Shown here: positions 23,551 to 51,801 of the stretch, one piece after another
How the letters are laid out: each line of letters opens with the position of its first letter
How positions within the stretch are numbered: the first letter of the stretch is position 1
DNA from: Candidatus Yanofskybacteria bacterium RIFCSPLOWO2_01_FULL_42_49
Lineage (GTDB): Bacteria > Patescibacteriota > Minisyncoccia > 2-02-FULL-40-12 > GWA2-44-9
Reading direction: 5' to 3'
DNA length: 64,000 nucleotides
Assembly (NCBI GenBank): GCA_001795615.1
Contig: MGKI01000011.1
Location: 44,996-108,995 of the forward strand
Program-made: the position numbers and the translations under genes
The notes under the pieces: model-generated
Database searches by the model: none
Told to the model about the DNA's origin: nothing
What the model saw: only the letters and a program-made list of their open reading frames with translations

Positions 23551-23637
23551 AATGTAATACGAATTCTACGAATATCACACGAATACTGCGAATAATTCGT
23601 GGTATTCGCATATTATTCGTTATATTCGTATTATGTT
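23551..23637. repeat. ACGAAT-rich leader element, copy D, between parA and parB, ending 4 nt upstream of the parB ATG.
   Basis: aatgtaatacgaattctacgaatatcacacgaatactgcgaataattcgtggtattcgcatattattcgttatattcgtattatg. Confidence 0.8.
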
Positions 23638-23639
23638 GA

Positions 23640-36142: not shown

Positions 36143-36177
36143 CTCTTCCGTACGGAATAGTTGTGAGACACTCGTAT

Positions 36178-37773
36178 CTATGCTCTTAACCTTTCTCTAA
36201 ATATCCCCTCGATTATTTGGGGATTTGCTTTACCCTTTGTTTCCCGCATGGCCATGCCGACAAGAAATTTTAGCGACGCTTCTTTCCCTTTTTTATAATC
36301 TTCCACGGCTTTAGGATTATCAGCAACAACCTTGTCCACCGCCATCTCAAGATCGCCGATGCTTGATAACTGTGCAAGATCTTTTTCTTCTATTATTTTC
36401 CCCGGAGAAGCTCCGGTCGCAAACATTTCTTTCAGCACTGTCTGGGCGCCGCTTGAAGAAACCTCGCCATGGAATATTCTGACGACAAGATCGGCCAGCA
36501 TTTCCGGTAACACTTTTGTATCTGCCAGTTCAGCATAAACCTCTTCGGCCATTCGTTTTAATTCGGTGATAAGATAGTTAGCTGCTAATTTAAAAAGTTG
36601 TTTGTGATGCTCCTCCAGTTTGCCCGCCCCGTAGTGTGATTTCGATTTTTCTTTGCCGGAGGAGGCATTCGAAATCTCTACTTCGGGGTCAAAAGATAAC
36701 AATTCCGAAGCCACATGTTCAAAATAATCTCCGAGCAGTTTGTCTGTGGTAAAAAGCTTAGTGTCCTTTTCTGGCAAACCGTATTGCTTGGCAAATCTTT
36801 CTCTTCTTTGTTGCGGTAACTCTGGAAGTCGGGACTTGATGTCTTCAATGTCGACGTCTTCAAAATGAAGCGGCGGCAAGTCCGGTTCCGGGAAATATCT
36901 GTAATCCTGCGCCTCTTCCTTTGTTCTCATTAAATACGTCTCCCCTTTTTTCTCATCCCAACCCCGTGTCTCTTGCTTTACCTTCTCCCCTGCCTCAAGA
37001 AGTTCGGTTTGTCTTTTTATCTCATAATTAACAGCATCGGCGGCAAACTTAATAGAGTTAATGTTTTTAACCTCAACTTTTGTCCCTAATTTGTTTGGTA
37101 ATTGTCCGCCAACTGGCGGATTGGAAATTGGTAATTCCGGTCGAAGTGATATATTCACTTCTACGCGCATCTGTCCTTTTTCCATGTCGGCGTCGGAAAC
37201 ATTTAAGTATCTCCAAATAAGCTGCAACTCCTCCGCAAATTTTTTGACCTCCTGTCCGCTTTCAAGATCTGGTTCTGTCACCAACTCCATAAGTGGCACC
37301 CCGGCACGATTAAAATCAACCAGTGAGTAGTCGGCACCAGTCGGATGGTACAACCGTCCAGCATCTTCCTCAAGATGTATTCGTGTTATTCTTATTCGTT
37401 TCGGATTTGAAATTTCTGGTTCTGAACTTGTTTCAGATTTTATATCAAGATACCCTTCATAACACAACGGTTTCTGGTATTGAGAAATCTGATAACCCTT
37501 AGGCAAATCTGGGTAAAAGTAATTTTTTCTTTCAAAAAAGGTGTCTTTTTCAATTTTACAATTCAACGCCAATCCGGTCATAATCACTTTTTTCACAGCA
37601 TCTTCGTTTGCGACGGGCAAGGTTCCCGGATGCCCCATACAAATTGGACAGACATTAACATTCGGGTGTTTTTCATCCGGATCATTTAACGAATCACAAA
37701 ACATTTTAGTTTTTGTCTTCAGCTCGGCGTGTATTTCCAGACCGATAACTGGCTTGTATTTAGTAGCGGCCAT
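36178..37773 (-). CDS. gatB: Asp/Glu-tRNA amidotransferase subunit B. Contains a 65-nt in-frame palindromic insertion (DPEVEISNASSGKEKSKSHYGAG).
   Basis: MAATKYKPVIGLEIHAELKTKTKMFC…NVCPICMGHPGTLP GatB N-terminus. 531 aa. Confidence 0.85.
   Translation of the reverse strand: MAATKYKPVIGLEIHAELKTKTKMFCDSLNDPDEKHPNVNVCPICMGHPGTLPVANEDAVKKVIMTGLALNCKIEKDTFFERKNYFYPDLPKGYQISQYQKPLCYEGYLDIKSETSSEPEISNPKRIRITRIHLEEDAGRLYHPTGADYSLVDFNRAGVPLMELVTEPDLESGQEVKKFAEELQLIWRYLNVSDADMEKGQMRVEVNISLRPELPISNPPVGGQLPNKLGTKVEVKNINSIKFAADAVNYEIKRQTELLEAGEKVKQETRGWDEKKGETYLMRTKEEAQDYRYFPEPDLPPLHFEDVDIEDIKSRLPELPQQRRERFAKQYGLPEKDTKLFTTDKLLGDYFEHVASELLSFDPEVEISNASSGKEKSKSHYGAGKLEEHHKQLFKLAANYLITELKRMAEEVYAELADTKVLPEMLADLVVRIFHGEVSSSGAQTVLKEMFATGASPGKIIEEKDLAQLSSIGDLEMAVDKVVADNPKAVEDYKKGKEASLKFLVGMAMRETKGKANPQIIEGIFRERLRA
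36624..36688. repeat. 65-nt imperfect palindromic element, in frame in gatB.
   Basis: cccgccccgtagtgtgatttcgatttttctttgccggaggaggcattcgaaatctctacttcgggg. Arms cccgtagtgtgatttcga and tcgaaatctctacttcggg. Confidence 0.8.
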
Positions 37774-37821
37774 AACTACATTAAAATACCATTATTTTTT
37801 GTAATAAAAAAGTCTCCATTA

Positions 37822-39561
37822 TTAGAGACTTTGTGTCAACGGCACTTCAGAACCGCGAGCAAATATGTAGGCAGGAGTCATGTTGGCCCTCGAAAATAGG
37901 TGCCACCACGGATAAAGATCACGCAAACCTTTCTCAATAGAGAGAAAGATCTGCCTCACTTCGTGATTAACTGACGGTTTAGTTCTTTGCCAGTTACAAA
38001 ACTCATGCTGTCGCAAATTGGCTGAATAAATAAACCCAGCCCTAAAACCAATCGGCAGAATATACTGAGATATTACTGGCGGAACTTGATTTAATCCCAC
38101 ATAAACATTTTGGCTTGACTGTTTGGCGATTTGGAAACTTTTAGCAAGCTTAGGAGGCTGTGGTTTATCATACCGATAAAATCCGAGAGAGGGGGTCAAT
38201 AAAGTCCTCCGATGAGTAGACAGACCCTGACGATGCAAGTCGCGCCATCCTCTAAAAGACATCACCCCCACAAAGGGAACGGTGACTAACTCAAATTCTC
38301 GAGGCAACTTGTCGTGATCGTCGCGTCCGCCAATAAATAATTCCCCAACGATATCTCGAATGTCCAAAATACTCAGATGCTCGTCTTCTTCTCTAAAGAA
38401 AAATGCCTCTTCGATAATGTTTTTGGCTATTTCGTTCTTGGGAACAGTAATAAAGGGCACAATTCTTTCTAACCCGCCAAACAAGGTTAGCGGTATATGC
38501 TTCCACCCCCGTATTTCAGCATCCGAGGGTTGATAGTGACGAATGAACTGGTCTGCTCCGACTTTGCCTGCTTCCTGCAAAATCAATTCCACAAGCGCTA
38601 AATTTTCAGCCGTATCATCAAGAATAAGGTGTCTTAGAACAGACGGCAGTGACTCGCCACTAATCGCGGCGGCGACAGAAGTAAGGGTTGCTGCCGGAAG
38701 TAAGTTGCCTAAAATATCAAATGTTTCACCGGCAACACCAACTTCAACTTTGCCTCCATTCTCTTCGATCAACTTCCCCCATTTCTCTCTAAGAAAGTTA
38801 GGAAACAGACCGTTTAAATTATCGCCCAAGTTGTCTGCATAAAGAATAAACAGACTGTTTAGGTGATTTTGAATAACTGACGCGGATGTTCCTAATACTC
38901 GGAGTTCGTTATCAATTGGATATACTCCCGCTTTTTCTCTGTCGACAAATCTTGTCGACAGCTCAACATAACCGGCTCCGGGCCGCGTCCACTCAATTGA
39001 TTTAGCGGCAAGAATAGAAACATCCTCAAAACAGATCCATACCTCACCCATCCTGGCAATAGAGTTGTGGCCATATTGATCCAACCACATACCAAGAAAT
39101 TTTTTGGCTTTTTGCGAATCTGCCAACAGCCGAGTATATGCTTCTTCGGGGGCTTGAGACACAAACCACTCAAATTTAGACCTCGTTTCAGATGAGTAGG
39201 AAATAAAATCGCGCAGATTTTTTATTTCATGGTTCTTAAGAAATGGCTCAACATCGTCTTGGCTCGTGCATAAATTACTCACCAGAAGACCAGGCAAAAA
39301 AGAGTCGACAAAAACACCCCTGATTCCGCGTTTATTTTTAAGCCTGGAGAACATCGAGGCAAGCGTGGCCATTACATTAGAAGGCAAGGAATGCATAAAA
39401 AATACCCGTTGATCAATATTAGTAAAGAATGGTTTTAATGTTTTTTGTTCATCTCCTGAAAAAGAGTATCCGACTTTGGAATGAACAAACTCTCTAGCAA
39501 CCGAAACAAGAGCATCCTGCTTTTCTTTCGGCAGCACAGACAAGCCAAGACCTGTGTCCAT
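37822..39561 (-). CDS. Thy1/ThyX-family (flavin-dependent thymidylate synthase) homolog with tandem duplicated domains and degenerate catalytic motifs.
   Basis: Half 1: YGHNSIARMGEVWICFEDVSILAAKSIEWTRPGAGYVELSTRF versus ThyX GH-x-SV-x-EH…F-x-GVSR…QLVRHR-x-ASY-x-E-x-S-x-RY (AGYVELSTRF matches ASYNELSGRY). Half 2: …FVGVMSFRGWRDLHRQG…SLGFYRY. The RHR and E-H residues are substituted in both halves. 579 aa. Confidence 0.4.
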   Translation of the reverse strand: MDTGLGLSVLPKEKQDALVSVAREFVHSKVGYSFSGDEQKTLKPFFTNIDQRVFFMHSLPSNVMATLASMFSRLKNKRGIRGVFVDSFLPGLLVSNLCTSQDDVEPFLKNHEIKNLRDFISYSSETRSKFEWFVSQAPEEAYTRLLADSQKAKKFLGMWLDQYGHNSIARMGEVWICFEDVSILAAKSIEWTRPGAGYVELSTRFVDREKAGVYPIDNELRVLGTSASVIQNHLNSLFILYADNLGDNLNGLFPNFLREKWGKLIEENGGKVEVGVAGETFDILGNLLPAATLTSVAAAISGESLPSVLRHLILDDTAENLALVELILQEAGKVGADQFIRHYQPSDAEIRGWKHIPLTLFGGLERIVPFITVPKNEIAKNIIEEAFFFREEDEHLSILDIRDIVGELFIGGRDDHDKLPREFELVTVPFVGVMSFRGWRDLHRQGLSTHRRTLLTPSLGFYRYDKPQPPKLAKSFQIAKQSSQNVYVGLNQVPPVISQYILPIGFRAGFIYSANLRQHEFCNWQRTKPSVNHEVRQIFLSIEKGLRDLYPWWHLFSRANMTPAYIFARGSEVPLTQSL

Positions 39562-39650
39562 CTTCCCTCTTTATCAAAGAACGGTTTTTAAATGTTATCA
39601 AAAAACTTGTAAACAAAAAAGCCCTTCTGGGGGCTTGAGCGAAAAAGGTA

Positions 39651-40334
39651 TTATGACAACTTGATCCCGTTGGCGTTTAGAAGTTTTAACAATTCGCTTT
39701 TGACATCAGAGAATATCTCCTCAATGCTTCTGGACCCGTCAATAAAATGAAGATTTGCTTCCGGGTACTCGCGAGCAAAGATATAAAAATTTTCCCTTAC
39801 TCTTGCTAGCGTGTCTAGCCTTTCCATTTCGTCAAACGACCGACCCGACGCCTTGCCTCGTTCAATGGCCAGTTCAGGTGGTACATCAAAAATAAATACT
39901 TTGTCAGGCCACACCCAGTATCGGCGGTGGAGTTGTTGGTTCATTTCCATAAGCATGTGCAATTCAATAACATTGCCCTTTTCTGCTCCGTAAACCATCG
40001 ACTCCCTAAACCTGTCAGTGCAGACGATGTGTCCCGCTTCAAGACCAGGTATTACTTCCATCTCGCAATGCATCCGGCTGTCTTTGGCAAACAACTCTTG
40101 CAAATCAAACGGATCGGTTTGAGCAAACAATTGCTTGTCTCCCAAAATAGACCTTATCATCCTTCCAAAGCGTTGAGTAGTCGGTTGTTTTGTCCGCAGA
40201 ACCGCAATATTTTTATCTGCCAGATTGGCCCTCAACCAGTTGCATATCCTCAAAACCTGGCTTGACTTCCCACAGAAGTCGATACCACTGCCACACAAAA
40301 AAAGGCCACGATAGGGATTTTGTAAAACACCCAT
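39651..40334 (-). CDS. Divergent thymidylate-kinase-like P-loop nucleotide kinase.
   Basis: FLCGSGIDFCGKSSQ P-loop, LRTKQPT…GRMIRSIL, lid region HIVCTDRFRESMVYGAEKG, and DVPPELAIERGKASG…FDEMERL (Tmk architecture). A canonical tmk exists at 59920. Confidence 0.55.
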   Translation of the reverse strand: MGVLQNPYRGLFLCGSGIDFCGKSSQVLRICNWLRANLADKNIAVLRTKQPTTQRFGRMIRSILGDKQLFAQTDPFDLQELFAKDSRMHCEMEVIPGLEAGHIVCTDRFRESMVYGAEKGNVIELHMLMEMNQQLHRRYWVWPDKVFIFDVPPELAIERGKASGRSFDEMERLDTLARVRENFYIFAREYPEANLHFIDGSRSIEEIFSDVKSELLKLLNANGIKLS

Positions 40335-40508
40335 GTTTTTCTCCTTAAAGAACTAAAATGCTCCAGTAGGAGCATTTTAGTTCACTTTCAAAAATTAAGC
40401 AAGTTTTTACTTCATCCCGCACCAATCTTATCCCTGCCTGCCGGCAGGCAGGCGTTGACCGCCATTAAGAAAGGTGGCGGGATTGGTGCGGGATTCCGTT
40501 CGCTTCGC

Positions 40509-40931
40509 TCACTTCACTTCAATCCCCATCGATCTTGCCGTTCCCTCGATTATTTTCATTGCCCCTTCGACATCATTCGCGTTTAAATCGGCCATTTTTT
40601 GTTCAGCTATCTCTTTGACTTGGGCTTTGGTAACTTTGCCGACTTTTGTCTTGTTTGGCACACCGGAACCTTTTTCAAGTCCGGCGGCAACTCGTAAAAG
40701 ATATGCCGCAGGAGGGGTTTTTAATTTAAATTCAAAACTCCTGTCTTCATAGATAGTTATCTCGACTGGGGTAACTTGGCCCATTTTATCTTTGGTTGCA
40801 TCATTAAACTGCGACACGAACTGCTGGAGATTTATTCCATGAGGACCCAAAGCCGTACCAACCGGCGGAGCCGGAGTAGCTCGCCCGCTTTCGACTTGGA
40901 GTTTTACAATTGTTTTTATTTTCTTAGCCAT
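40509..40931 (-). CDS. rplK: 50S ribosomal protein L11.
   Basis: [34 protein letters not shown]. 140 aa. Confidence 0.9.
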
Positions 40932-40934
40932 AAA

Positions 40935-41112
40935 TTTTAATAAATCTCTAAATCCTAATCTCTAAATCCTAAACACCTGCCTGCCGGCAGGCAGGAATCC
41001 AAAATTCTCAGCCTGAGGCTGATCCGCCTCTGGCGGAAAATATCTAAATGTTTTTGGATTTTGATATTTGGTCATTTGATATTGTTTAGAAATTAGAAAT
41101 TGCGAGTTATAT
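40935..41112. repeat. Composite intergenic element, copy 1 (AT-rich heptad module plus three GC hairpins), upstream of rplK.
   Basis: aaatctctaaatcctaatctctaaatcctaaacacctgcctgccggcaggcaggaatccaaaattctcagcctgaggctgatccgcctctggcggaaaatat…gatattgtttagaaattagaaatt. Nearly identical to copy 2. Confidence 0.85.
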
Positions 41113-41115
41113 TTT

Positions 41116-41661
41116 TTACAATTTCTTAATTTGTAAAAAATCTAACTCGACTGGTGTTTCGCGACCAAAAATAGTCACCAACACCTTTACTCGGCCCTTT
41201 TCCGGATCTATCTCGGATATCTTGCCGTCAAAGTCCTTGAACGGACCGTCGGTTATTTTTACCCTATCACCCACCTCCACGTCAATCTTGTACTTCGGTT
41301 CGTCAACGCCCATTCTCTTCAATAATGTCTCAACTTCTTCGCTTGAAAGAGGCGTCGGCACGGTGCCAGCTCCGATAAATCCGGTCACATTCGGCGTATT
41401 TCTAACTACATACCAGGAATCATCATCCACCAACATCTCAACTAAAACATAGCCGGGATAAATTTTTTCCTCAATCGTTTCTCTTTTCCCGCCCTTAATT
41501 CTGATCTTTTTTTCCTTGGGAACAAGAACATTAAAAATTTTGTCTTCAAATCCAAGCGACTCAACACGCTGTTTGAGGTTTCGGGACACATTGTCTTCAT
41601 AACCTGAATAGGTATGGATCGCGTACCACTGTTTCTCTCCGGTTGTAACTTGCTTCGGCAT
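41116..41661 (-). CDS. nusG: Transcription termination/antitermination factor NusG.
   Basis: WYAIHTYSGYEDNV NGN domain plus KOW (VGDRVKITDGPFKDFDGKISEID). 181 aa. Confidence 0.85.
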   Translation of the reverse strand: MPKQVTTGEKQWYAIHTYSGYEDNVSRNLKQRVESLGFEDKIFNVLVPKEKKIRIKGGKRETIEEKIYPGYVLVEMLVDDDSWYVVRNTPNVTGFIGAGTVPTPLSSEEVETLLKRMGVDEPKYKIDVEVGDRVKITDGPFKDFDGKISEIDPEKGRVKVLVTIFGRETPVELDFLQIKKL

Positions 41662-41844
41662 TTATAACTTGCTGGCCGCTCTCGCCTTCCGGCAACTGCC
41701 GGATTATGGCGAGTACGCTCTTGACCGACTTTTTCGTTAAATCTTTCGCTTGCTCCTTACCATACATTAGTATGGCTCGTCGCAATGCTCAGATTTGTCT
41801 CAAATTCGGTCAAGCCAGCTGCGTTCTAATCTAAATCTTTTTTA

Positions 41845-42027
41845 TTAAATTATGAATTTATTCAACAACCACTCGAACATAAAATCTAATAACCCTAAAA
41901 ACACCGCTGTAGCCAAACTAATAGCAACCACCACAATGGTATATTGGACAGTTTGGCTTTTGGTCGGCCAGCTTACTTTTGATAATTCGTGTCTGACCTC
42001 TTTTAGAAAAGTAATGAGTTTATCCAT
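41845..42027 (-). CDS. secE: Preprotein translocase subunit SecE.
   Basis: MDKLITFLKEVRHELSKVSWPTKSQTVQYTIVVVAISLATAVFLGLLDF. Conserved secE-nusG-rplK order. Confidence 0.75.
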   Translation of the reverse strand: MDKLITFLKEVRHELSKVSWPTKSQTVQYTIVVVAISLATAVFLGLLDFMFEWLLNKFII

Positions 42028-42098
42028 TCCATTAATTAAAGTATTTAAAAACGCCCTCGGGCGCACTTAATTTCCCTTAATGATAGCAAAATTTAATA

Positions 42099-42392
42099 TT
42101 AACTGTCAATAGCCTTCTTCTGAACATCGGTGGCCAATAAATAACCTGAGCGAAAGTAGTATTTAAGATTTTCCAAAAAAGACATTCCGTCGTAAGGATA
42201 TAGTTTGCCGGGTTTCGCATTTTTGTAATCAAAAATTCCTTCTCCTTCTATGTTTTTTAAAACGGGGTGGTTTTCATCTCCGTCAATTTCAACTCTCCCC
42301 GGTTCATCGCCTTGCATTTTAAAAGTAGCAATCTTTCTTTGCTTTGCATCTTTGTCCAGTTCGTATAAGTCAACGAAATAAAATAAGGTCAT
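42099..42392 (-). CDS. Hypothetical protein (97 aa).
   Basis: ORF only. Overlaps the next gene by 4 nt. Confidence 0.4.
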   Translation of the reverse strand: MTLFYFVDLYELDKDAKQRKIATFKMQGDEPGRVEIDGDENHPVLKNIEGEGIFDYKNAKPGKLYPYDGMSFLENLKYYFRSGYLLATDVQKKAIDS

Positions 42393-43147
42393 ATCGAGAT
42401 TGTTCCGGTTTCCAATACCGTTGCCGCTATTTGCTTAACACCGGTTATAACTTTGATCAAGGTCGGTGTCACTGTTTCAACACCTATTTCTCTTGGGTCA
42501 ACCAGAAGCCGCTCTAAGGCCTCAACGAGCCTTCTCAATGGCTCTCTCGATTCGTCGTTAATTTCTGTCTTTAGCCCCCGGCGTTTAGCTTCACCTAACA
42601 TGTAATTATACTGATTCCATTCTTCCTTGGCATCTGCAAACATAAAATCATCATGGTCTGTGAGCCAAATTTTTTTAGTTCTTTCTAAAAAAATATTTGC
42701 TAATTTTCTGTCCGCTGCCTTTATCAGATGTTCAAAAAGTACCGCTCGAAATAATTCCTCGTCTGAAATTTCTCTTAAACAATCATCCTCAAGTTTCACG
42801 GCCGGTGTGGCTTCACCTAAAAACCGCTGCAAGGTTCCCTCTTCTTGATTAACCGTCCTCATTACGACTTCTGGGACGACTCCTAATTCTGCGGTTTTAC
42901 TGATAAGTCTCGCTAATAGCTCAAGTTGAACTCTTAATGGCCTTCCTCTGGCTTCGCTCTCTTTGGGCCTGAACAAACCCTTCCCGTCATCTCTAATTTC
43001 TACAACATCAAATCTCTCCGCTCCCTCAAGTGGCCGACTGTCAACAATCTCTCCTCTCTCCAAAACCGACTCAATATCAACTTCCGGACCTGTTTCCGGC
43101 TTTGTGACTGGAGCTTCATGTTTTTCGAAAGATTGACCCTCTGCCAT
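42389..43147 (-). CDS. Hypothetical acidic protein (about 252 aa from MAEGQ).
   Basis: ORF. The track's 69-nt N-terminal extension (MDSCLPAGRCLGF…) is translation of the intergenic palindromic repeat, so the start is placed at 43147. Confidence 0.45.
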   Translation of the reverse strand: MAEGQSFEKHEAPVTKPETGPEVDIESVLERGEIVDSRPLEGAERFDVVEIRDDGKGLFRPKESEARGRPLRVQLELLARLISKTAELGVVPEVVMRTVNQEEGTLQRFLGEATPAVKLEDDCLREISDEELFRAVLFEHLIKAADRKLANIFLERTKKIWLTDHDDFMFADAKEEWNQYNYMLGEAKRRGLKTEINDESREPLRRLVEALERLLVDPREIGVETVTPTLIKVITGVKQIAATVLETGTISI

Positions 43148-43335
43148 AAGTGGTAAAATCTCTAAATCCCAATCTCTAAATCCTAAACACCTGCCTGCCG
43201 GCAGGCAGGAATCCAAAATTCTCAGCCTGAGGCTGATCCGCCTCTGGCGGAAAATATTTAAACGGTTTTGAGCTTTGATATTTGGTTATTTGATATTGTT
43301 TAGAGTTTAGAAATTAGAGTTTAGGGTTTTCTGTT
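43148..43335. repeat. Composite intergenic element, copy 2, upstream of the hypothetical gene 42389..43147 and downstream of gyrB.
   Basis: Same about 150-nt sequence as copy 1 with a few substitutions. Confidence 0.85.
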
Positions 43336-43341
43336 CAAAAC

Positions 43342-45477
<2,136 letters not shown>

Positions 45478-45762
45478 CTAGACTGCTTAGAGGGCGGGAC
45501 ATTTTTATCATCTAATTATATCATTTTAAACTATTGAAATCAAGCAAAATTGTGGCTAATTTTGTAAAACAAAAGAGGGCCTTATTTGCCCTCCCAAATC
45601 TCCTGACTCGACTCGCGCCGGAATTGGTTGCGGTCATACCGGCCGCCTCTTCGCGCCGGCACGACTTTCTCGGTCTGCCGCGGAAGTGGCGCCCGCGGAA
45701 GCGCGATTCGCACCGCTTTTTTTCTGTTTTTCACCTTATCCTCCCACCAAACCCTCACATCA

Positions 45763-45798
45763 CCGCCATATAACTAGCAATTGTTAGTTATATGGCGG
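45763..45798. terminator. Perfect hairpin ccgccatataacta-gcaattgt-tagttatatggcgg at the 3' end of pheS.
   Basis: 14-bp stem seen directly, immediately downstream of the pheS stop (minus strand). Confidence 0.6.
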
Positions 45799-45799
45799 T

Positions 45800-46954
45800 T
45801 TACCTTAGTTCTACGTTAAATTGCTCCGCCGTTTGTTTATAAACTTTATCTTGAATTGCATCCACTTCCCCACTCTTCAGTGTCCTTTCCATACTTCTAT
45901 AAACGATACGGTAGGTGTAGCTGATCTTATCGGATCCAAATTTTTTAGAATCTTCGTATTTATCTATCAGCTCAACTTGTTCCACCAAATCTCCGCCCAG
46001 ATCTCTTATTAGTTCGAAATAGTTGTTGGGAATGAAATCTTTGTTTACCACAAAAGAAATATCGCGAGTTATGGCCGGGTACTTCGAAACTTCTTTGTAC
46101 TCCTGTCCTAGTTTCAACTGTTTTTTGACCCTCTCGTCCTGCGACCAGAAAAGACGGATATCGGGAATATTCATATTGGCTATCGCTAGACGCTCCAATC
46201 CGAATCCAAAAGCCCAGCCGTTGTAAACATCCGGGTCAACGCCAAAATTTTTCAACACGGTTCCTCTCACAATGCCGCATCCAAGCACCTCAACCCACCT
46301 TTCTTTTATCTTTACTTCCATCTCAACGCTTGGATCCGTATACGGAAACTGGTCAATATTAAAACGATGTTCAACTTTTTCTCCAAAAATCGCCTTGGCA
46401 ATTTCGGTCAGCACTTCTTTCAAATCGTCGATGGTAATAACCTTTTCTTCCCGCCGTACAAGATACCAGCCGTCGATCTGATGAAACACCGGCATGTGGA
46501 AACGATCAATCTCATCTTTACGATATACTTTCCCGTGAGATAAGGCTCCGACGCTTTTCCCTTTTTCAATTTCACTTTTTACTTGAGGCAACCCCAAATG
46601 GTAATACCACATCACGGTGGTGTGGGTCCTTAAAACATTTTCTTGATCTACAAAATATGTATCCGACGGATTGCGGGCGGGGTGATCCGAAGGAAAGTTA
46701 AACAAATCAAAACTCACATCGTATCGGACGATTTCCGGCACTTTCAAAACATTAAAATCGGCAAACCGAGGCAGAGCGACTATACGCTCAGCGAGTTCCG
46801 CAAGCGGACTGTCCGGTGTACGGGACAGGTCGGGCATGGCTAAAAAACGCTTTAAGCGCAGCCCATCCGAGTCTGTCCTTCCTTCCAGTTGTTTGACAAG
46901 TTCAGATTCTTCCGGTGATTTTATTTCAATATATTTTGAATCGTCAACTGACAT
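45800..46954 (-). CDS. pheS: Phenylalanine--tRNA ligase alpha subunit.
   Basis: FPYTDPSVEMEV…GWAFGFGLERLAI class II motifs. 384 aa. Confidence 0.85.
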   Translation of the reverse strand: MSVDDSKYIEIKSPEESELVKQLEGRTDSDGLRLKRFLAMPDLSRTPDSPLAELAERIVALPRFADFNVLKVPEIVRYDVSFDLFNFPSDHPARNPSDTYFVDQENVLRTHTTVMWYYHLGLPQVKSEIEKGKSVGALSHGKVYRKDEIDRFHMPVFHQIDGWYLVRREEKVITIDDLKEVLTEIAKAIFGEKVEHRFNIDQFPYTDPSVEMEVKIKERWVEVLGCGIVRGTVLKNFGVDPDVYNGWAFGFGLERLAIANMNIPDIRLFWSQDERVKKQLKLGQEYKEVSKYPAITRDISFVVNKDFIPNNYFELIRDLGGDLVEQVELIDKYEDSKKFGSDKISYTYRIVYRSMERTLKSGEVDAIQDKVYKQTAEQFNVELR

Positions 46955-46959
46955 GGCCG

Positions 46960-47154
46960 TTATTTCTTAAATATTTTTTTAACCACCAGCTTTAATATCA
47001 GAAACAATCCCGACAGTGAAAGCAGCAGCGAACTAAAAAATAAAAATTTAACTAATTTACCAGCCGTATACGGATCGTGGCCGATGACTATAATAATTAG
47101 TCCGGCCACCGATGAACTGACGATTATAAGAATGCTCCAGATAAAAAACTTCAT
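46960..47154 (-). CDS. Small two-TM membrane protein (64 aa).
   Basis: Two hydrophobic helices and a Lys-rich tail. Confidence 0.35.
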   Translation of the reverse strand: MKFFIWSILIIVSSSVAGLIIIVIGHDPYTAGKLVKFLFFSSLLLSLSGLFLILKLVVKKIFKK

Positions 47155-47256
47155 AGTGAGATCATCTCAAAATATCTTAACTGAAATTCCCGTTTTTGAC
47201 AATTATTTATCAGGTTGTATGCTAGCGGCATCATCCTTAAAAACTAGGGGTTTTTA

Positions 47257-48807
47257 ATGTCCGGATCTTGGACAATACAAAAACTTTCTGAAAACACGGT
47301 CCGAACGGGTCCTGCTTTGGTTTTGCTTAAAAAAGACGGCTCCAGGATAAGTTATTCATGGCAATGTTATGAATGGCAAGTCGGGCAAACAATGTCCTCT
47401 TTGAAACGGATTGGTGTCTCTGAAAATGACTTTGTCGTTGTGGCTGCCCCCAACCTCCCTGAATCATTTTTTGTTCTGTTGGGAGTAATCGCAGTTGGAG
47501 CCATTCCCGTACCAATCAACATTCCCATTCTTAAAGAACCGGGGCAAGGCGAGTTCTTGTCAATCATAAAAGACTGTCGGCCTAAATTGATTTTAGCCGA
47601 TTCATGTTTGTCGAAATATTTAAGCAGCGTGGAACATGCTACTTTTGGCAAGCTGCTGTTTCACGGCCGTATTCCGCCATCGCTTGAATTTGATAAAAAT
47701 AAATCTAACCCCGAAGCTTTGCTGATAATGCCCTATACTTCCGGAACAACCGGCAAATCCAAAGGGGTTATGCTTAGCGAAGAAAACATATTAGACAGGG
47801 TCTCGGCCGTCACCCAAGAATTGGACGCCGATTCACAAGAGAGGATCCTTTCTTACTTATCTCTGGGTCATATCTCCGAACTTATCGCTACCTTCTTCGG
47901 ACAACTGTACGGCGGCTTCTGCGTTTATTTTACCGAGTACGCTAAGGATGTGGTTGAAAATAGAGAAAAATTTAGAGCGGCGTTCCCGACGATCCTTCAA
48001 GCGGCCCGGCCGACCATATTTCTTGCCGTTCCCAAAGTCTGGGCGAACATCAGAAAACAGATTGAACACAAAACCAGATATATTCCCGTGGATCTGGGCA
48101 AACAAGGTCTGATCAGAAACTATCTGGTCAGTAAAATAAAAAATCGGCTTGGATTTGACGAAACAAGACGGTTCATCAGCGCCGGATCTAAAATTCTACA
48201 GGAAGATGTCAATTTCTTCGCCAAATTAGGAATTCATGTTGACGATATATACGGCCAAACGGAAACTGCCGGTCCGCTTACTCTCAACGGCAAGGCGATA
48301 GGAAATGTTTCCGTGACAAGCGGAGAGGATGATGAAATATTGGTATCGGGGCCAAATGTAATGACTGGTTACTATAACAATCCCGAGGTGACAAAACGGA
48401 TTTTAGTTGATGGAGTTTATCGGACCGGCGACATTGGAATATGGACGACTGATAAAGTCCTCTACGGCGGACGACTTAGAGACGGGTTTAAAAACGCCCA
48501 AGGCGAATTTGTGTCCGCCACTAAAATTGAAGAAATGGAAGACAAGATAAGAAAAATTCCTGGAGTTGATGAGGTTATAATCTGTGGCGACGGAAAACCT
48601 TATCCCGTAGCCCTCGTATTCAGCGCCACTCCTTCCGAAAACCTGAGAAGCAGACTGCAAAAAACCCTGCCAAAAATAGAAAACAGCCTTTTCAGAATAG
48701 GGAATTTCATTCTCGCTGATATAAGCACTCTTGAAACGACGGCAACCCTGAAAGTAAAGCGAAACGCAATGATTAAAAAATTCGAGAAAGAAATAGCCAA
48801 ACTTTAA
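47257..48807 (+). CDS. AMP-dependent synthetase/ligase (acyl-CoA synthetase-like).
   Basis: AMP-binding motif YTSGTTGKSKGV, TGD…GR motif, and C-terminal lysine region. Followed by terminator aaaaaccccc-ttcg-ggggtttt (48806..48828). Confidence 0.8.
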   Translation: MSGSWTIQKLSENTVRTGPALVLLKKDGSRISYSWQCYEWQVGQTMSSLKRIGVSENDFVVVAAPNLPESFFVLLGVIAVGAIPVPINIPILKEPGQGEFLSIIKDCRPKLILADSCLSKYLSSVEHATFGKLLFHGRIPPSLEFDKNKSNPEALLIMPYTSGTTGKSKGVMLSEENILDRVSAVTQELDADSQERILSYLSLGHISELIATFFGQLYGGFCVYFTEYAKDVVENREKFRAAFPTILQAARPTIFLAVPKVWANIRKQIEHKTRYIPVDLGKQGLIRNYLVSKIKNRLGFDETRRFISAGSKILQEDVNFFAKLGIHVDDIYGQTETAGPLTLNGKAIGNVSVTSGEDDEILVSGPNVMTGYYNNPEVTKRILVDGVYRTGDIGIWTTDKVLYGGRLRDGFKNAQGEFVSATKIEEMEDKIRKIPGVDEVIICGDGKPYPVALVFSATPSENLRSRLQKTLPKIENSLFRIGNFILADISTLETTATLKVKRNAMIKKFEKEIAKL

Positions 48808-48989
48808 AAACCCCCTTCGGGGGTTTTGTTTTACTACTGGCGGGCGCGACGGCGGTTGGAATGAACTGCTTCATTCCAACCAGGAATTTTAGTGTGCGTC
48901 TATTGCTGTTGCGGCATAGAACGCGTTGGAAAATTCCCGAAGAACATCGCGAAGCGCGTTCGAGTCTGTCAGCTTTGCTGGCAATAATA

Positions 48990-49021
48990 GATAAGACCGC
49001 CATTTGAATGGCGGTCTTATC
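48990..49021. terminator. Perfect 13-bp-stem hairpin gataagaccgcca-tttgaa-tggcggtcttatc downstream of the minus-strand tRNA-Asp.
   Basis: Seen directly. Confidence 0.55.
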
Positions 49022-49031
49022 TATTACCGGC

Positions 49032-49104
49032 GGGGCCGACGGGACTCGAACCCGCAACCTCTTCCGTGACAGGGAGGCGCTCTAACCAATTGAGCTACGG
49101 CCCC
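49032..49104 (-). tRNA. tRNA-Asp(GUC). CCA is not encoded.
   Basis: Minus strand GGGGCCG-TA-GCTC-AATTGGTTA-GAGC-G-CCTCC-CTGTCAC-GGAAG-AGGTT-GCGGG-TTCGAGT-CCCGT-CGGCCCC-G. Anticodon loop and T-arm are identical to E. coli tRNA-Asp. One C·A mismatch in the anticodon stem. Confidence 0.85.
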
Positions 49105-49171
49105 AAATTATTAAAATAATGCTTAAATGTTAGCATATTTTGCCTAAAATAAAAGCCCCGCTACTGCGGGA

Positions 49172-50632
49172 CTACCTCTCAAATGATTCTTTCTTTGCGG
49201 CTTCGGAAAGTTTAACGAGATATCTGGCGGGATCTGCCATAAATATTCCTTTGGCTTCTTTTAAATTTCGCGCGCCCAAGTAACTTACCATCGAGGATAA
49301 ATGGCCGACTATTTCTTTTACGATCGGAACAACCGGACCTCGATACTCAACCTCTTTTTCCATGCCTTCTGGGCTTATTCTGGAAGAAATTTCATAGGGA
49401 TCGTCAGTTTCTTCGGCTCTAAGCTTTTCGTACATTGCTTCTCGCGAAGCCATCCCTCTGAACCTTTTGACTTTCCTGCCTTCAGAATTTCTGAAAACCA
49501 GTCCTGGGGTTTCGTCCGTACCGGCGAATGTGCCTCCTGCCATCACCGAATCGGCTCCCAACAAAAGAGCCAAGCCGAAATGTCCGTTTCTTTTAACGCC
49601 TCCGTCGGCGCAAATAGGAATTTCCGCATCAACAGAGCACTCAAAAATCGCTTGAGCTTGGGGAACGCCAATATTGGTATTCTTTCTGGTGGTACAGGCA
49701 GAACCTGGCCCTAGGCCGACTTTTAGTCCGTTAGCCCCGAGCGTCTGGTACTTTTTGACAGCTCCCGATAAAACAATATTGCCTACAACCAACTCAAAAT
49801 CAGGAAATCTTTTCCTAAACTCTCGAACCGCTTTTTCTCCCACTACCGACTGTGCGTTAGCTATATCAAGAACGATAACGTCCGCGTCGGTCCTGATTAG
49901 TTCAGCCGCCCTTTCAAGGTAGTCCCCCGTAGCTCCTATAGCCGCCCCGACAACAAGCTGGCCTTTTTCGTCTTTATTTGCTAACGGATGGCGTTCTATG
50001 CTCTCTATGTCCTTAGCCGTAATCAATCCAAGCAACCGACCCGTACCTTTATCAATAAGCGGTAATTTCTCCAAACGGTGAGTGTCGATAATTTTTTTGG
50101 CCTCTTCCAAGGTTGTAGAAAGAAAACCATACTTAAGATTATCAATCGGCGTCATCCGTTTGACGACTCTTGCGTCGTCGCCACAAAATCTGACATCACG
50201 ACCGGACAACATGCCTACAAGCCGTTTGTTTTGGTCAACGACAACCAACCCCCCGACCTTATTCTTTTGCATCAAATCCCTGGCCTCACCCACTGATGCT
50301 CCCGGATTTATTTCATACGGCTCTTTTATCACAAAACTTTCAGCGCGTTTTACTTCTCTAATTTTTGCGCACTGATCTTCAATGTTGAGATAACGGTGAA
50401 TAACCCCTAAACCGCCTTGTTTGGCAATCGCGATAGCCATCCGCGCTCCCGTAACAGTATCCATATTCGCAGACACTATCGGAATGTTAAGTTTTACATT
50501 AGTCGAGAATCGCGAAGTAAGAGAAATACCGCCACGACTTTCGACGACACCCCAACCGGGCGGGTTAAGAAAGTCGTCAAAAGCACACCCGTTCAACACG
50601 GAACGGAGCCACTTATTTCTTTTACCACTCAT
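49172..50632 (-). CDS. guaB: IMP dehydrogenase with CBS pair.
   Basis: IPIVSANMDTVTGARMAIAIAKQGGLGVIH, GLGPGSACTTR, and CBS pair (…MLSGRDVRF…LGLITAKDI). 486 aa. Confidence 0.85.
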   Translation of the reverse strand: MSGKRNKWLRSVLNGCAFDDFLNPPGWGVVESRGGISLTSRFSTNVKLNIPIVSANMDTVTGARMAIAIAKQGGLGVIHRYLNIEDQCAKIREVKRAESFVIKEPYEINPGASVGEARDLMQKNKVGGLVVVDQNKRLVGMLSGRDVRFCGDDARVVKRMTPIDNLKYGFLSTTLEEAKKIIDTHRLEKLPLIDKGTGRLLGLITAKDIESIERHPLANKDEKGQLVVGAAIGATGDYLERAAELIRTDADVIVLDIANAQSVVGEKAVREFRKRFPDFELVVGNIVLSGAVKKYQTLGANGLKVGLGPGSACTTRKNTNIGVPQAQAIFECSVDAEIPICADGGVKRNGHFGLALLLGADSVMAGGTFAGTDETPGLVFRNSEGRKVKRFRGMASREAMYEKLRAEETDDPYEISSRISPEGMEKEVEYRGPVVPIVKEIVGHLSSMVSYLGARNLKEAKGIFMADPARYLVKLSEAAKKESFER

Positions 50633-50699
50633 TTTCGCCCCTTTTTAAGTCAAAGAACATTTACCCATAGATAACAAAAATGTAAGAACAAGAGAAGAG

Positions 50700-51227
50700 T
50701 TATTCAAGCCACAACATCCCTCCGCGCCAGCCGGCGAGAAATTCTTTTTTAGAAACAACGTACCTGTTGCCTCTTTTGCCCGGATACGGATCGGCGATAT
50801 GATAGCCCAAGACAAATGGACCCAGCTTCTTTATTTTTTCTACGATGACCAAATGAGCCGTGTCGGACAAATTAAATTCTTTCAGGACTGAAACCGCAAC
50901 CGGTGATTTTAATATTGACAATTGATTATTGATCATTTTAATCCCCTCTTTTTTCTTTTCCGGGGTGTTGAAAAATTCTTTCTGGAAATTCATGGGTACT
51001 CCATATGAAGCGGCCAGATCCACCAGAGCTTGATGCTTCCAGCCGATATTTTTAATATAGCCGCCGGCATTGAAAGCTTGGCTTAATAAAGTCATAATCG
51101 GGATACTCTGAAATTTCTGATTTTTAAAAACCATCAGCATCTTAATAACACAAATCCCGCACGAGTGCTTGCTCCAACTTTCATCCCCAGCATCGGTAAT
51201 TTGATTTACAAGTTTAACTTCTGCCAT
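50700..51227 (-). CDS. Papain-like cysteine peptidase, C39-like domain.
   Basis: WSKHSCGICVIKMLM (catalytic Cys context of C39-like peptidases) with downstream His. 175 aa. Confidence 0.45.
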   Translation of the reverse strand: MAEVKLVNQITDAGDESWSKHSCGICVIKMLMVFKNQKFQSIPIMTLLSQAFNAGGYIKNIGWKHQALVDLAASYGVPMNFQKEFFNTPEKKKEGIKMINNQLSILKSPVAVSVLKEFNLSDTAHLVIVEKIKKLGPFVLGYHIADPYPGKRGNRYVVSKKEFLAGWRGGMLWLE

Positions 51228-51255
51228 TTATTCGTAATTCTTAATTCATAATTCG

Positions 51256-51801
51256 TTATTCCAGTTCGGGATGCCAATAAATTTTTTCTATTTTACGGGT
51301 GCCATTATAGGTATAGTGATGCTTATGCGGAAACCCTGTGCCTTTGGAATCGTTGCTTATCGCTTCCTGTCCGCTCCAAAAAAATCCAATATGATTGTGA
51401 GGCTCTCCGTCGTGGCCGTCTTTTTTCTCCCAAATTATTACAGCGCCAGGCTTGAGTTCTTTTATTTCGTACCAACCATTTTCAAGCAAATCTTTTTCGG
51501 TTGAAACGACGGTAAGGTGGATGTATTTAATCCAATGTTTCTTGCCCGTAAACTCCAACAGTGGGTTGAATGAGTAAAGAATGGACGACACCATAACCGC
51601 GCAGGAGTTCCTGCCGTTTTCAAGCGAATCTTCGATTTCCCCGCCCGCCCCGTAGTGTGATTTCGATTTATCTTTGCCGGAGGCATTCGAAATCTCTACT
51701 TCGGGGTGTTTTTCCACATAAAAATTCCTGAACAAATGGTTCTCGCCTTTTGCGGAATTTTCGATTTGAGTTAAATAATTTTTTTTTAACAACAACCTCA
51801 T
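51256..51801 (-). CDS. CHAP/NlpC-P60-like cysteine peptidase (putative cell-wall hydrolase). Carries the 65-nt in-frame palindromic insertion also present in gatB.
   Basis: NSCAVMVSSIL…GW…KPGAVIIW…HIGFFWSG Cys/His arrangement. Insertion is PEVEISNASGKDKSKSHYGAGG. Confidence 0.5.
   Translation of the reverse strand: MRLLLKKNYLTQIENSAKGENHLFRNFYVEKHPEVEISNASGKDKSKSHYGAGGEIEDSLENGRNSCAVMVSSILYSFNPLLEFTGKKHWIKYIHLTVVSTEKDLLENGWYEIKELKPGAVIIWEKKDGHDGEPHNHIGFFWSGQEAISNDSKGTGFPHKHHYTYNGTRKIEKIYWHPELE
51641..51704. repeat. 65-nt imperfect palindromic element, second copy, in frame in the CHAP-like peptidase gene.
   Basis: ccgcccgccccgtagtgtgatttcgatttatctttgccggaggcattcgaaatctctacttcgggg. Identical to the gatB copy apart from 3 nt and one codon. 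Confidence 0.8.

What the first reader, a model, noticed from the sequence alone, without database searches (positions are those of the whole stretch)
36624..51704. A second, about 65-nt palindromic element sits in frame in both gatB and a CHAP-like peptidase gene
Sequences 36624..36688 and 51641..51704 are about 95% identical at the DNA level, although the surrounding genes are unrelated. Both are in frame and add the peptide (D)PEVEISNAS(S)GK(E/D)KSKSHYGAG. The element is an imperfect inverted repeat, with arms cccgtagtgtgatttcga and tcgaaatctctacttcggg around a GC-rich core. Sharing a 65-nt DNA segment between unrelated proteins indicates a recently mobile, in-frame-tolerated element.
Basis: seen in the sequence. 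Interest (0 to 1): 0.7.

Follow-up and report, generated by a model that had tools for sequence, protein, structure and literature searches.

The report
In-frame palindromic repeat in groundwater bacterium
A 63-66 base hairpin-forming repeat sits in frame inside two unrelated genes of an uncultured groundwater bacterium (Candidatus Yanofskybacteria), the same kind of "selfish DNA inside protein genes" known from Rickettsia, and it is kept far more constant than the surrounding DNA.

Summary
Window 36622-36687 (gatB) and 51643-51705 (an NlpC/P60-like gene) carry the same imperfect palindrome: 62/63 aligned bases identical plus one 3-nt indel. Both copies lie on the minus strand, in frame, and encode PEVEISNAS(S)GK(E/D)KSKSHYGAG.

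Related copies occur in other Yanofskybacteria-type contigs:
- in frame in class II fructose-bisphosphate aldolase and in a small Cys-rich ORF;
- in intergenic DNA;
- overlapping ORF 3' ends, once supplying the TAG stop.

Orthologues show the peptide is derived. None of the 49 nearest GatB orthologues has it. Only the closest NlpC/P60-like orthologues have it, and one 97.5%-identical allele lacks exactly the 21 residues.

In AlphaFold2 models both inserts are low-confidence loops. Diverged subfamilies keep the same hairpin architecture through compensatory changes. At the orthologous site the element is 63/63 identical between lineages whose flanking synonymous positions are about 59% identical, yet it is decaying in a third lineage.

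Best reading: a REP/REPIN- or RPE-like dispersed hairpin element. In-frame copies survive because the element is 21 codons long, open in that frame and encodes a hydrophilic loop.

"Recently mobile" is only partly right. How it moves is unknown: no target-site duplication and no transposase was seen. I rate it a new member of a known kind, of moderate interest.

The parts
36622..36687 (-). Element copy A (66 nt) in frame in gatB. It encodes GatB residues 363-384, PEVEISNASSGKEKSKSHYGAG. It carries one extra TCC codon relative to copy B.
   Evidence: Covariance-model hit 84.6 bits. Absent from 49/49 nearest GatB orthologues.
51643..51705 (-). Element copy B (63 nt = 21 codons) in frame in the 181-aa NlpC/P60-like gene. 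It encodes residues 33-53, PEVEISNASGKDKSKSHYGAG.
   Evidence: Covariance-model hit 92.8 bits. Clean 21-residue insertion relative to more than 28 orthologues. Empty-site DNA seen in L068 and L067.
36627..36645 (-). Copy A, 3' arm of the hairpin in the sense orientation (TCGAAATCACACTACGGGG). Positions 36622-36626 are the unpaired CGGGC tail.
   Evidence: Fold; pair table.
36669..36688 (-). Copy A, 5' arm of the hairpin in the sense orientation (CCCCGAAGTAGAGATTTCGA). The first C is the third base of the host Asp362 codon.
36655..36666 (-). Copy A, small apical hairpin. It reads GCCTCCTCCGGC here and GCCTTCGGC in the family consensus.
   Evidence: fold.
51648..51666 (-). Copy B, 3' arm of the hairpin in the sense orientation.
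51687..51706 (-). Copy B, 5' arm of the hairpin in the sense orientation.
36178..37773 (-). gatB (531 aa), host gene of copy A. The insert lies between predicted helices 345-360 and 383-411 of the C-terminal helical region.
   Evidence: Pfam; PDB alignment to 3al0_B and 3h0l_B leaves query residues 355-396 unaligned; AlphaFold2 pLDDT below 50 for residues 364-380.
51256..51801 (-). 181-aa NlpC/P60-like protein, host gene of copy B. The insert is the loop between predicted strands 28-31 and 55-58.
   Evidence: AlphaFold2 model: mean pLDDT 85.9, below 50 at residues 43-51. Foldseek hits. UniRef name.

Best explanation
The two sequences are copies of a small (63 nt, 21 codons) non-autonomous hairpin repeat family that lives in Candidatus Yanofskybacteria genomes. 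It is comparable to REP/REPIN elements and to the Rickettsia palindromic elements.

The unit has five parts:
- a 9-bp outer stem carrying GTAG(T) on one arm and its complement (A)CTAC on the other;
- a one-base bulge;
- an 8-10 bp inner stem;
- a tiny apical hairpin (GCC-TTC-GGC) followed by a 9-nt A-rich unpaired stretch;
- a 5-nt 3' tail (CARGY).

Copies have been deposited at unrelated sites in genes, between genes and at ORF ends. No target-site duplication is visible. Most copies sit directly 3' of a GAC triplet that, in gatB and fba, is host-encoded.

Copies inside genes persist only when three conditions hold. They must enter at a codon boundary in the one hydrophilic open frame (only 2 of the 6 frames are open). 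They must add a Gly/Ser/Lys-rich peptide. They must land in a surface loop. The peptide is therefore a tolerated by-product, not the selected object.

The hairpin itself is maintained at the nucleic-acid level. The cause is either selection on a DNA or RNA structure, or homogenisation against other copies.

Shown: dispersal, derived state, frame and loop placement, conserved architecture with compensatory changes, nucleotide conservation above the synonymous background, and a filled/empty polymorphism.

Inferred: that a trans-acting enzyme recognising the single-stranded hairpin (for example a RAYT/IS200-type HUH transposase) copies it, and that GAC is the target.
For: 1. Dispersal. The same element lies in frame in gatB and the NlpC/P60-like gene. 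It also lies in frame in class II aldolase of two other Yanofskybacteria-type contigs (L006, L023) and at the N-terminus of a 76-aa Cys-rich ORF (L051). Intergenic copies occur upstream of rplC (L020, L021, L022, L035) and downstream of another ORF (L019). Copies overlap ORF 3' ends in L027 and at L009 2642-2708, where the element's TAG is the stop codon.

2. Derived state. 0 of 49 GatB orthologues carry the peptide. In the 181-aa family it is present only in the closest orthologues and absent in more than 28 others. P0254 is 156/160 identical to the window protein but lacks exactly the 21 residues.

3. Tolerance. Only 2 of 6 frames are open, and the used frame has GRAVY -0.6 to -1.1. AlphaFold2 places both inserts in low-pLDDT loops. 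The aldolase insert follows the conserved 'ID' at a strand end.

4. Structure.
- 97.6% of cells are paired in 10 copies, with three compensatory pairs; slid controls give 26-44%.
- The variants L009b, L019b and L058 have different stem sequences but fold into the same architecture, with z-scores of -6 to -8.

5. Nucleotide-level maintenance.
- Window versus L064, which was retrieved by protein homology: third positions of same-amino-acid codons are 21/21 identical in the element and 79/135 in the flanks, Fisher p = 3.8e-5.
- Aldolase, L006 versus L023: 19/21 third positions identical against about 51% in the flanks.

6. Host GAC. The Asp directly before the insert is conserved in GatB orthologues without the element (SFD) and in solved aldolases ('ID'). 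GAC also precedes the copies in L019 and L051.

7. Precedent. Intragenic REPs and RPEs, stem subfamilies with complementary changes, and GTAG ends supplying TAG stops are described in PMC3733652. RPE in-frame insertions are summarised in PMC10969869.
Against: - No transposition event was observed directly.
- No target-site duplication, and no transposase or other mobility gene among the precomputed Pfam annotations of the window and about 10 kb beyond it.
- Copy number in the source genome is unknown and looks low: 2 copies in about 74 kb. REPs usually number tens to hundreds.
- Element boundaries are uncertain by about 3 nt. The block conserved among loci is 66 nt but the clean insertion is 63 nt.
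- The GatB event also involves a 21-nt loss, so it is not a textbook insertion.
- The element is 63/63 identical between window and L064 beside diverged flanks, yet shows 8/63 changes in L069/L070. Simple vertical descent of a neutral parasite does not explain this. It needs selection, conversion or repeated site-specific insertion, and these data cannot separate them.
- Most extra copies were found with an exact 21-nt pattern. The sample is therefore biased towards well-conserved inner stems.
Confidence: 0.68

Rival explanations
1. The hairpin is a functional nucleic-acid motif kept by selection at each site, and mobility is only its historical origin. It might act in the mRNA (stability, RNase processing, translational pausing between domains) or in DNA (a protein binding site).
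For: - Nucleotide conservation far above the synonymous background at orthologous sites.
- The three changes in L009 all preserve structure: one G-U wobble, one loop position and one tail position.
- Compensatory changes and a conserved architecture across subfamilies.
- Copies at ORF 3' ends, and a relative followed by a T-run in L058, resemble REP-like post-transcriptional elements (PMC3733652).
Against: - The orthologous copy in L069/L070 has lost the fold (z = -0.26) without losing the gene.
- P0125 keeps only a 13-residue remnant.
- P0254 lacks the element altogether, and most orthologues never had it.
- No Rfam family matches.
- Host genes are functionally unrelated.
Confidence: 0.15
2. 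Copies are not transposed. They spread and stay alike through ectopic gene conversion, illegitimate recombination or hairpin-mediated template switching between existing copies. This would be concerted evolution without a dedicated enzyme.
For: - Identity is confined exactly to the element, with diverged DNA immediately on both sides.
- No target-site duplication and no transposase were seen.
- A contig (P0245) joins gatB to the NlpC/P60-like gene exactly at the repeat.
- Correction of arm against arm within a hairpin could also produce the apparently compensatory changes.
Against: - Conversion can homogenise copies but cannot create a copy at a site that shares no homology. The gatB, fba and NlpC/P60 sites share nothing but GAC.
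- A 63-nt tract is very short for efficient recombination.
- P0245 is more simply an assembly chimera, since it diverges again near its end.
Confidence: 0.12
3. The shared segment is a protein-level module, a selected peptide such as a Lys-rich flexible loop, acquired by both proteins. The DNA palindrome would be incidental.
For: - All four independent genic copies use the same frame and orientation.
- The peptide is well conserved (alignment A2).
Against: - Intergenic and frame-shifted copies exist (L019, L020, L022, L027).
- Synonymous positions are as conserved as the others.
- Same-frame use is expected because only 2 of 6 frames are open.
- A profile search of 1.84 billion representative proteins found no family with this peptide.
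- The inserts are predicted to be disordered loops.
Confidence: 0.03
4. The shared segment is an assembly or chimera artefact that pasted one sequence into two contig positions.
For: One chimeric contig exists in which the two genes are joined at the repeat (P0245).
Against: - The identical GatB protein is encoded on 13 contigs and the 181-aa protein on 9 contigs, from independent JGI and ENA assemblies.
- The element is shorter than a sequencing read.
- Reading frames are preserved.
- Orthologous filled sites occur in several other genomes.
Confidence: 0.02

Closest known systems
Rickettsia palindromic elements (RPE-1 to RPE-10): 'selfish DNA in protein-coding genes' (Ogata et al.; summarised in PMC10969869 and PMC3733652)
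   Same: - A dispersed palindromic repeat found both between genes and in frame inside unrelated housekeeping genes of a small-genome bacterium.
- Each family encodes one conserved peptide in one frame.
- Insertions sit where the protein fold tolerates them.
- No transposase is known.
   Different: - Different phylum: Candidate Phyla Radiation, not Alphaproteobacteria.
- Length of 63-66 nt against about 100-150 nt for RPE-1.
- Sequence similarity to RPE families was not tested here.
- Nucleotide-level conservation exceeding the synonymous background, and a filled/empty polymorphism, are documented here.
GTAG-type REP elements and REPINs mobilised by RAYT (Y1/HUH) transposases (PMC3733652; Bertels & Rainey, PMC3116915; bioRxiv 10.1101/2021.07.10.451892)
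   Same: - Two conserved inverted arms of about 20 nt, each carrying GTAG, around a more variable spacer, folding into one long hairpin.
- Subfamilies differ by complementary stem changes.
- The TAG of the motif can serve as the stop codon of the upstream ORF.
- Some copies are intragenic and encode 20-30 residues.
- No target-site duplication.
- Long persistence with vertical inheritance.
   Different: - GTAG lies 4 nt inside the end and within the stem, not as a terminal tag.
- The arms are not themselves palindromes.
- Observed copy density is low, and both window copies are genic.
- No RAYT gene was seen or could be searched for.
Bacterial MITEs (for example Correia/NEMIS, ERIC, RUP)
   Same: A small non-autonomous repeat with inverted ends, which can create in-frame fusions.
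   Different: No target-site duplication at any of about 9 loci. No related IS is known. The element is much shorter than most MITEs and is essentially one hairpin.

Membership tests
RPE-like protein-coding palindromic repeats | Repeated palindromic DNA dispersed at unrelated loci | tested here: met
   Two window copies plus copies at 7 or more other distinct loci in related contigs. Pairing 97.6%.
RPE-like protein-coding palindromic repeats | In-frame insertion into unrelated protein-coding genes, with the host ORF kept intact | tested here: met
   gatB, the NlpC/P60-like gene, class II aldolase and a 76-aa ORF. The insertions are shown against orthologues or solved homologues.
RPE-like protein-coding palindromic repeats | Inserted peptide located where the fold tolerates it (surface loop) | tested here: met
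   AlphaFold2 gives pLDDT below 50 at GatB 364-380, between two helices. It gives pLDDT below 50 at residues 43-51 of the 181-aa protein, between two strands. This is prediction only.
RPE-like protein-coding palindromic repeats | Sequence relationship to a described RPE family, or a Rickettsiales host | tested here: not met
   The host is Candidatus Yanofskybacteria, by the NCBI names of the identical proteins. Length is 63-66 nt against about 150 nt. Direct sequence comparison with RPE consensus sequences was not possible.
GTAG REP / REPIN-RAYT | GTAG tetranucleotide tagging the end of the palindromic unit | tested here: inconclusive
   GTAG(TAG) is conserved in all subfamilies, and CTAC is mirrored on the other arm. 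It lies 4 nt from the end and inside the stem.
GTAG REP / REPIN-RAYT | Two inverted REP units with a spacer, forming a long hairpin (REPIN) | tested here: inconclusive
   Arms of about 20 nt with a 23-nt spacer that varies more. The paired-versus-unpaired difference in variability is not significant (p = 0.19). The arms are not self-palindromic.
GTAG REP / REPIN-RAYT | Cognate RAYT (Y1 transposase) gene in the genome | not testable with these tools
   No transposase Pfam family among the genes of the window and about 10 kb beyond.
GTAG REP / REPIN-RAYT | Tens to hundreds of mostly extragenic copies per genome | tested here: not met
   Only 2 copies, both genic, in about 74 kb of the source genome. 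The whole-genome count is unknown.
MITE | Target-site duplication flanking the element | tested here: not met
   No direct repeat at any locus. Filled and empty sites were compared.
MITE | Parent insertion sequence sharing the terminal inverted repeats | not testable with these tools
   No IS was seen in the held sequence.
Intrinsic transcription terminator | GC-rich hairpin followed by a T-run at a gene end | tested here: not met
   Both window copies are inside ORFs with no T-run. Only the distant relative in L058 is followed by a T-run.
Any Rfam RNA family | Covariance-model match | tested here: not met
   No hit at E <= 1 around copy A. Only two tRNAs in the whole window at gathering thresholds.

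The most novel reading that the evidence does not exclude
The element is not a passive parasite. It would be a site-specific, hairpin-guided inserting element that targets GAC and leaves no duplication. It would either repeatedly re-enter the same gene positions in separate lineages, or be actively kept identical by a dedicated enzyme. On this reading, Candidate Phyla Radiation bacteria carry a previously undescribed REPIN-like replicator system that remodels loops of core enzymes (GatB, aldolase, and by analogy the other in-frame palindromes in PGK, TIM and MiaA).
Probability: 0.15. Interest if true: 0.7.

Novelty: new member of a known kind. Interest (0 to 1): 0.45.

Why it matters
In-frame palindromic repeats have been treated mainly as a Rickettsia curiosity, with scattered intragenic REPs elsewhere. 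Finding the same phenomenon in an ultra-small, streamlined Candidate Phyla Radiation genome has three consequences.

- The combination of a reduced genome with protein-coding selfish hairpins recurs in an unrelated lineage. Here it affects essential genes: gatB and fba, plus other palindrome families in pgk, tpiA and miaA.
- It gives a concrete DNA-level source for the many lineage-specific loop insertions seen in proteins of these bacteria.
- It offers a small, well-defined element for asking whether such hairpins are selected, homogenised or re-inserted. The element has clear filled, empty, decaying and frozen states.

In practice, such repeats cause chimeric contigs and inflate apparent protein novelty in metagenome-assembled genomes.

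Tried and rejected
- Peptide-level enumeration of in-frame copies failed.
  - A doubled 44-aa peptide query returned only the L051 protein.
  - A profile search of 1.84 billion representatives returned only that protein plus two spurious repeat proteins, one ankyrin and one BspA-like.
- A viral-contig scan found nothing.
- Pfam gave no family for the 181-aa protein even at E = 10.
- Rfam gave nothing.
- The test of whether unpaired positions vary more than paired ones was not significant (p = 0.19).
- G-U versus A-C counts (2 against 1) are too few to say which strand folds.
- MAFFT could not put the diverged subfamilies into structural register, because the inner stem shifts by one column. 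I compared their individual folds instead.
- DNA for the empty allele P0254 is not on record.
- The first third-position test used loci found with an exact pattern inside the element. I repeated it with a locus found by protein homology, and the effect held.
- The covariance-model hit at 48983-49031 (E = 0.11) and weaker hits were treated as chance.

Full report
**1. Observation**

The two stretches exist as described.
- In the sense orientation of the host genes (window minus strand), copy A is at 36687->36622, 66 nt. It reads CCCGAAGTAGAGATTTCGAATGCCTCCTCCGGCAAAGAAAAATCGAAATCACACTACGGGGCGGGC.
- Copy B is at 51705->51643, 63 nt. It is the same sequence without one TCC codon and with GAT in place of GAA (alignment A6).
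- That makes 62/63 aligned bases identical.
- Arm patterns with up to three mismatches occur only at these two sites, with none expected in shuffles.
- A covariance model built from ten family members scores the two copies 93 and 85 bits. The next window hit has E = 0.11, so the 64-kb window holds exactly two copies.
- Another 10 kb of the same genome beyond the right edge of the window holds no copy.
- Either strand folds into a long hairpin, -24 to -29 kcal/mol, z -3.1 to -4.0.

**2. Host genes and organism**

- ORF 36178-37773(-) is GatB (Pfam GatB_N 6.5e-113 and GatB_Yqey 4.4e-37).
- ORF 51256-51801(-) has no Pfam match even at E = 10.
  - UniRef calls the identical protein 'NlpC/P60 domain-containing'.
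  - An AlphaFold2 model (pLDDT 85.9) gives weak but consistent Foldseek hits to NlpC/P60, CHAP and C39 papain-fold peptidases, E about 0.01.
  - Cys67 and His137 are invariant in the family.
  - 'CHAP-like' is therefore roughly right but weakly founded.
- Identical proteins are annotated as Candidatus Yanofskybacteria.
- The same genes occur on 9-13 contigs of independent JGI and ENA metagenome assemblies. This excludes a one-off assembly artefact.

**3. The peptides are derived insertions**

GatB:
- None of the 49 nearest orthologues (68-83% identity in the alignment) has the peptide.
- They read ...ELLSFD-KLDHLKKPEA-EHQNKLFKL... where the window reads ...ELLSFD-PEVEISNASSGKEKSKSHYGAG-KLE-EHHKQLFKL...
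- At the DNA level the element follows the conserved host GAC (Asp362), and 21 nt of the ancestral loop are missing 8 nt downstream. The net change is +15 residues, not +22.
- Solved GatB structures leave query residues 355-396 unaligned against about 9 residues.
- AlphaFold2 places residues 364-380 in a loop with pLDDT below 50, between helices 345-360 and 383-411.

181-aa protein:
- The insertion is clean. Orthologues read FYVEKx-GEIxDS and the window reads FYVEKH-[21 aa]-GEIEDS. Empty-site DNA is visible in L067 and L068.
- The insert is the low-confidence loop between strands 28-31 and 55-58.
- Only the closest orthologues carry it: P0122, P0123, P0124, P0252, P0253 and L009.
- P0125 has a 13-residue remnant sharing both ends.
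- P0254 is 156/160 identical to the window protein but lacks exactly the 21 residues. This is a filled/empty polymorphism among near-identical alleles. Its N-terminal third looks like other lineages, so it may be a recombinant.

**4. The family elsewhere**

- One scan of species-representative genomes found one hit, in a Candidatus Yanofskybacteria MAG. It lies in frame in class II fructose-bisphosphate aldolase. The insert follows the conserved 'ID' and adds about 18-21 residues relative to solved aldolases.
- One metagenome scan gave nine true copies among 51 pattern hits:
  - the orthologous aldolase site (L023);
  - the orthologous NlpC/P60 site (L009);
  - the N-terminus of a 76-aa Cys-rich ORF (L051);
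  - copies outside long ORFs: upstream of rplC in three related contigs (L020/L035, L021, L022), downstream of another ORF (L019), and overlapping the 3' end of an ORF in antisense (L027).
- The covariance model added a variant at L009 2642-2708, whose TAG is the stop codon of the upstream ORF.
- It also found a 76-nt relative in L058, followed by a T-run.
- A motif scan found another relative in tandem with the L019 copy.
- No copy occurs in viral contigs, and no Rfam family matches.

**5. Why all genic copies use the same frame**

In the 63-nt consensus only two of six frames are open. They are the one used (PVVEISNAFGKDKSKSHYGAG, GRAVY -0.6) and one antisense frame rich in Cys, Arg and hydrophobic residues. 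All four independent genic events use the hydrophilic frame. A tolerance filter would produce this, and the result is not significant by itself (p about 0.125). Frame-shifted intergenic copies (L022, L027) show that the peptide is not what defines the family.

**6. Structure is conserved**

- In ten copies, 97.6% of cells in 21 proposed pairs are standard pairs, against 26-44% when the partner is slid.
- Three pairs change on both sides: C-G to U-A, U-A to C-G and G-C to A-U.
- The diverged variants have different stems. The inner stem is GATTTCGA/TCGAAATC, GATTTCGG/CCGAAATC, TTTTTCGG/CCGAAAAA or TTTTCCAG/CTGGAAAA.
- All share GTAGTAGA...TCACTAC and fold into the same design: a 9-bp outer stem, an A bulge, an inner stem, and a small apical hairpin on the 5' side of an A/T-rich unpaired stretch. 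Their z-scores are -5.9 to -7.7.
- The excess of variation at unpaired positions is not significant in this small, pattern-ascertained sample (p = 0.19).

**7. Unexpected conservation**

- Window and L064 were compared at the orthologous NlpC/P60 site. L064 was found by protein homology, so its retrieval did not depend on the element's DNA sequence.
  - The element is 63/63 identical while the rest of the gene is 79.5% identical.
  - At third positions of same-amino-acid codons the figures are 21/21 against 79/135 (Fisher p = 3.8e-5).
- The aldolase pair L006/L023 shows 19/21 against about 51%.
- Identity stops at the element's edges: 9 differences in the next 39 nt. There is therefore no co-converted flank.
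- L009 has three changes: a G-U wobble, a loop position and a tail position.
- L069/L070 have eight changes, including three that destroy the inner 3' arm, and the fold is lost (z = -0.26).
- The element is therefore frozen in some lineages and decaying in another.
- Three explanations fit: selection on the hairpin that was relaxed in one lineage, homogenisation against other copies while the family is 'alive', or repeated insertion of a constant master copy into the same site. I cannot separate them with the data available.

**8. Ends and target**

- The block conserved among unrelated loci is 66 nt (GAC + 63), but the clean insertion is 63 nt.
- In gatB and fba the GAC is certainly host sequence. 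The Asp is conserved in orthologues and solved homologues that lack the element.
- GAC also precedes the copies in L019 and L051. L027 has AAC and L020/L021 have AAT.
- No target-site duplication is visible.
- This suggests insertion 3' of GAC, as target-specific duplication-free HUH (IS200/IS605, RAYT) systems do. That is an inference from about nine loci.
- The C of GAC also pairs with the last G of the stem, and it co-varies in L020/L021. The boundary therefore remains uncertain by 3 nt.

**9. Comparison with known systems**

- The behaviour matches the Rickettsia palindromic elements: in-frame, one peptide per family, tolerated positions (PMC10969869).
- It also matches the intragenic GTAG/CGTC REPs described by Di Nocera et al. 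(PMC3733652). That paper reports REP dimers encoding 20-30 residues, stem subfamilies with complementary changes, and GTAG termini supplying TAG stops.
- Long persistence of hairpin repeats is the hallmark of REPIN-RAYT systems.
- Membership in any of these families is not established:
  - the host and length differ from RPEs;
  - GTAG is internal to the stem, the arms are not self-palindromic, copy density looks low, and no RAYT could be looked for;
  - there is no target-site duplication as in MITEs.
- Full-text searches combining CPR/Patescibacteria/Parcubacteria with palindromic, REP, RPE or MITE terms found no description of such elements in this group. That is a limited search, not proof of novelty.

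**10. Verdict**

This is a real feature: a new member of the known class of protein-coding palindromic repeats, in a phylum where I found no description of them.
- 'Recently mobile' is only partly supported. The polymorphism, and a gatB copy unique to this species, argue for activity. The orthologous copies show that similarity is maintained rather than simply young.
- The GatB event is an insertion plus a deletion.
- Interest is moderate, at 0.45.

Noticed in passing
window 13075-13111 (pgk), 14475-14511 (tpiA), 16997-17033 (glycosyltransferase), 35196-35232 (miaA); also intergenic 41003-41039 and 43217-43253: A second palindrome family, two adjacent small GC hairpins (about CCGCCGAAGGCGG-AYCC-GCCTCYGGCKGG). 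It lies in frame in four more housekeeping genes, giving peptides such as FSAEGGSASGGNF, FSAEGEPASGWKD and ISARGGPASGWN. In-frame palindromes appear to be a general habit of this genome.
   Followed up: partly
window 35107-35135 (miaA N-terminus) and 37095-37123 (gatB residues 217-227): A third short palindrome (CAATCCGCCAGYTGGCGGACAA) is in frame in both genes, giving NPPAGGQ and SNPPVGGQ. The gatB copy is absent from most orthologues and is a low-pLDDT loop. GatB of this organism therefore carries at least two different repeat insertions.
   Followed up: partly
GatB alignment A3, window GatB residues about 112-124 and 213-229: Across Yanofskybacteria-type GatB orthologues these two loops are hypervariable in length and sequence. 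Lineage-specific peptides include SNPPSHKAS, DPSSREATKG, STSSGQMPTA and a 30-residue insert in P0016. This suggests repeated independent insertions at the same loops.
   Followed up: no
protein P0245 (ENA contig, 2168 nt): A predicted 462-aa protein is GatB residues 1-362, then the element, then the NlpC/P60-like protein. The two window loci are thus joined exactly at the repeat. This is probably an assembly chimera, possibly a real ectopic recombination or 15-kb deletion.
   Followed up: no
L019 1282-1347 and 1347-1411: Two hairpins of different subfamilies sit head to tail in one intergenic region: the canonical element and a variant with inner stem TTTTCCAG/CTGGAAAA.
   Followed up: partly
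window 36129-36171; also 10376-10418, 10949-10991, 11545-11587: A 43-nt palindromic repeat (GTCTCATA...TATGAGAC type) occurs at gene ends. The copy at 36129-36171 sits between the convergent stops of miaA and gatB, like a bidirectional terminator.
   Followed up: no
window 8865-8897, 16610-16697, 18547-18592 (inverted), 23553-23640: An intergenic repeat of 33-88 nt, rich in ACGAATA/TATTCGT motifs, is 89-98% identical between copies. It occurs in both orientations and always lies between genes.
   Followed up: no
window 40942-41101 and 43156-43315: A 160-nt direct repeat (94% identical), 2.2 kb apart. It contains several small palindromes, including CCTGCCTGCCGGCAGGCAGG, which also occurs at 40433.
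   Followed up: no
window 1614-4412: Five tandem copies with a 477-nt period (three at 97-100% identity) in a GC-richer region, presumably a repeat-domain protein gene.
   Followed up: no
L058 1084-1815 and L059 9177-10004, compared with window 37774-37821: Relatives carry a gene resembling a homing endonuclease (NUMOD3, Vsr, DUF559) directly upstream of gatB. The window lacks it. The L059 relative also has inteins in gyrB and dnaE, whereas the window GyrB (700 aa) has none.
   Followed up: no
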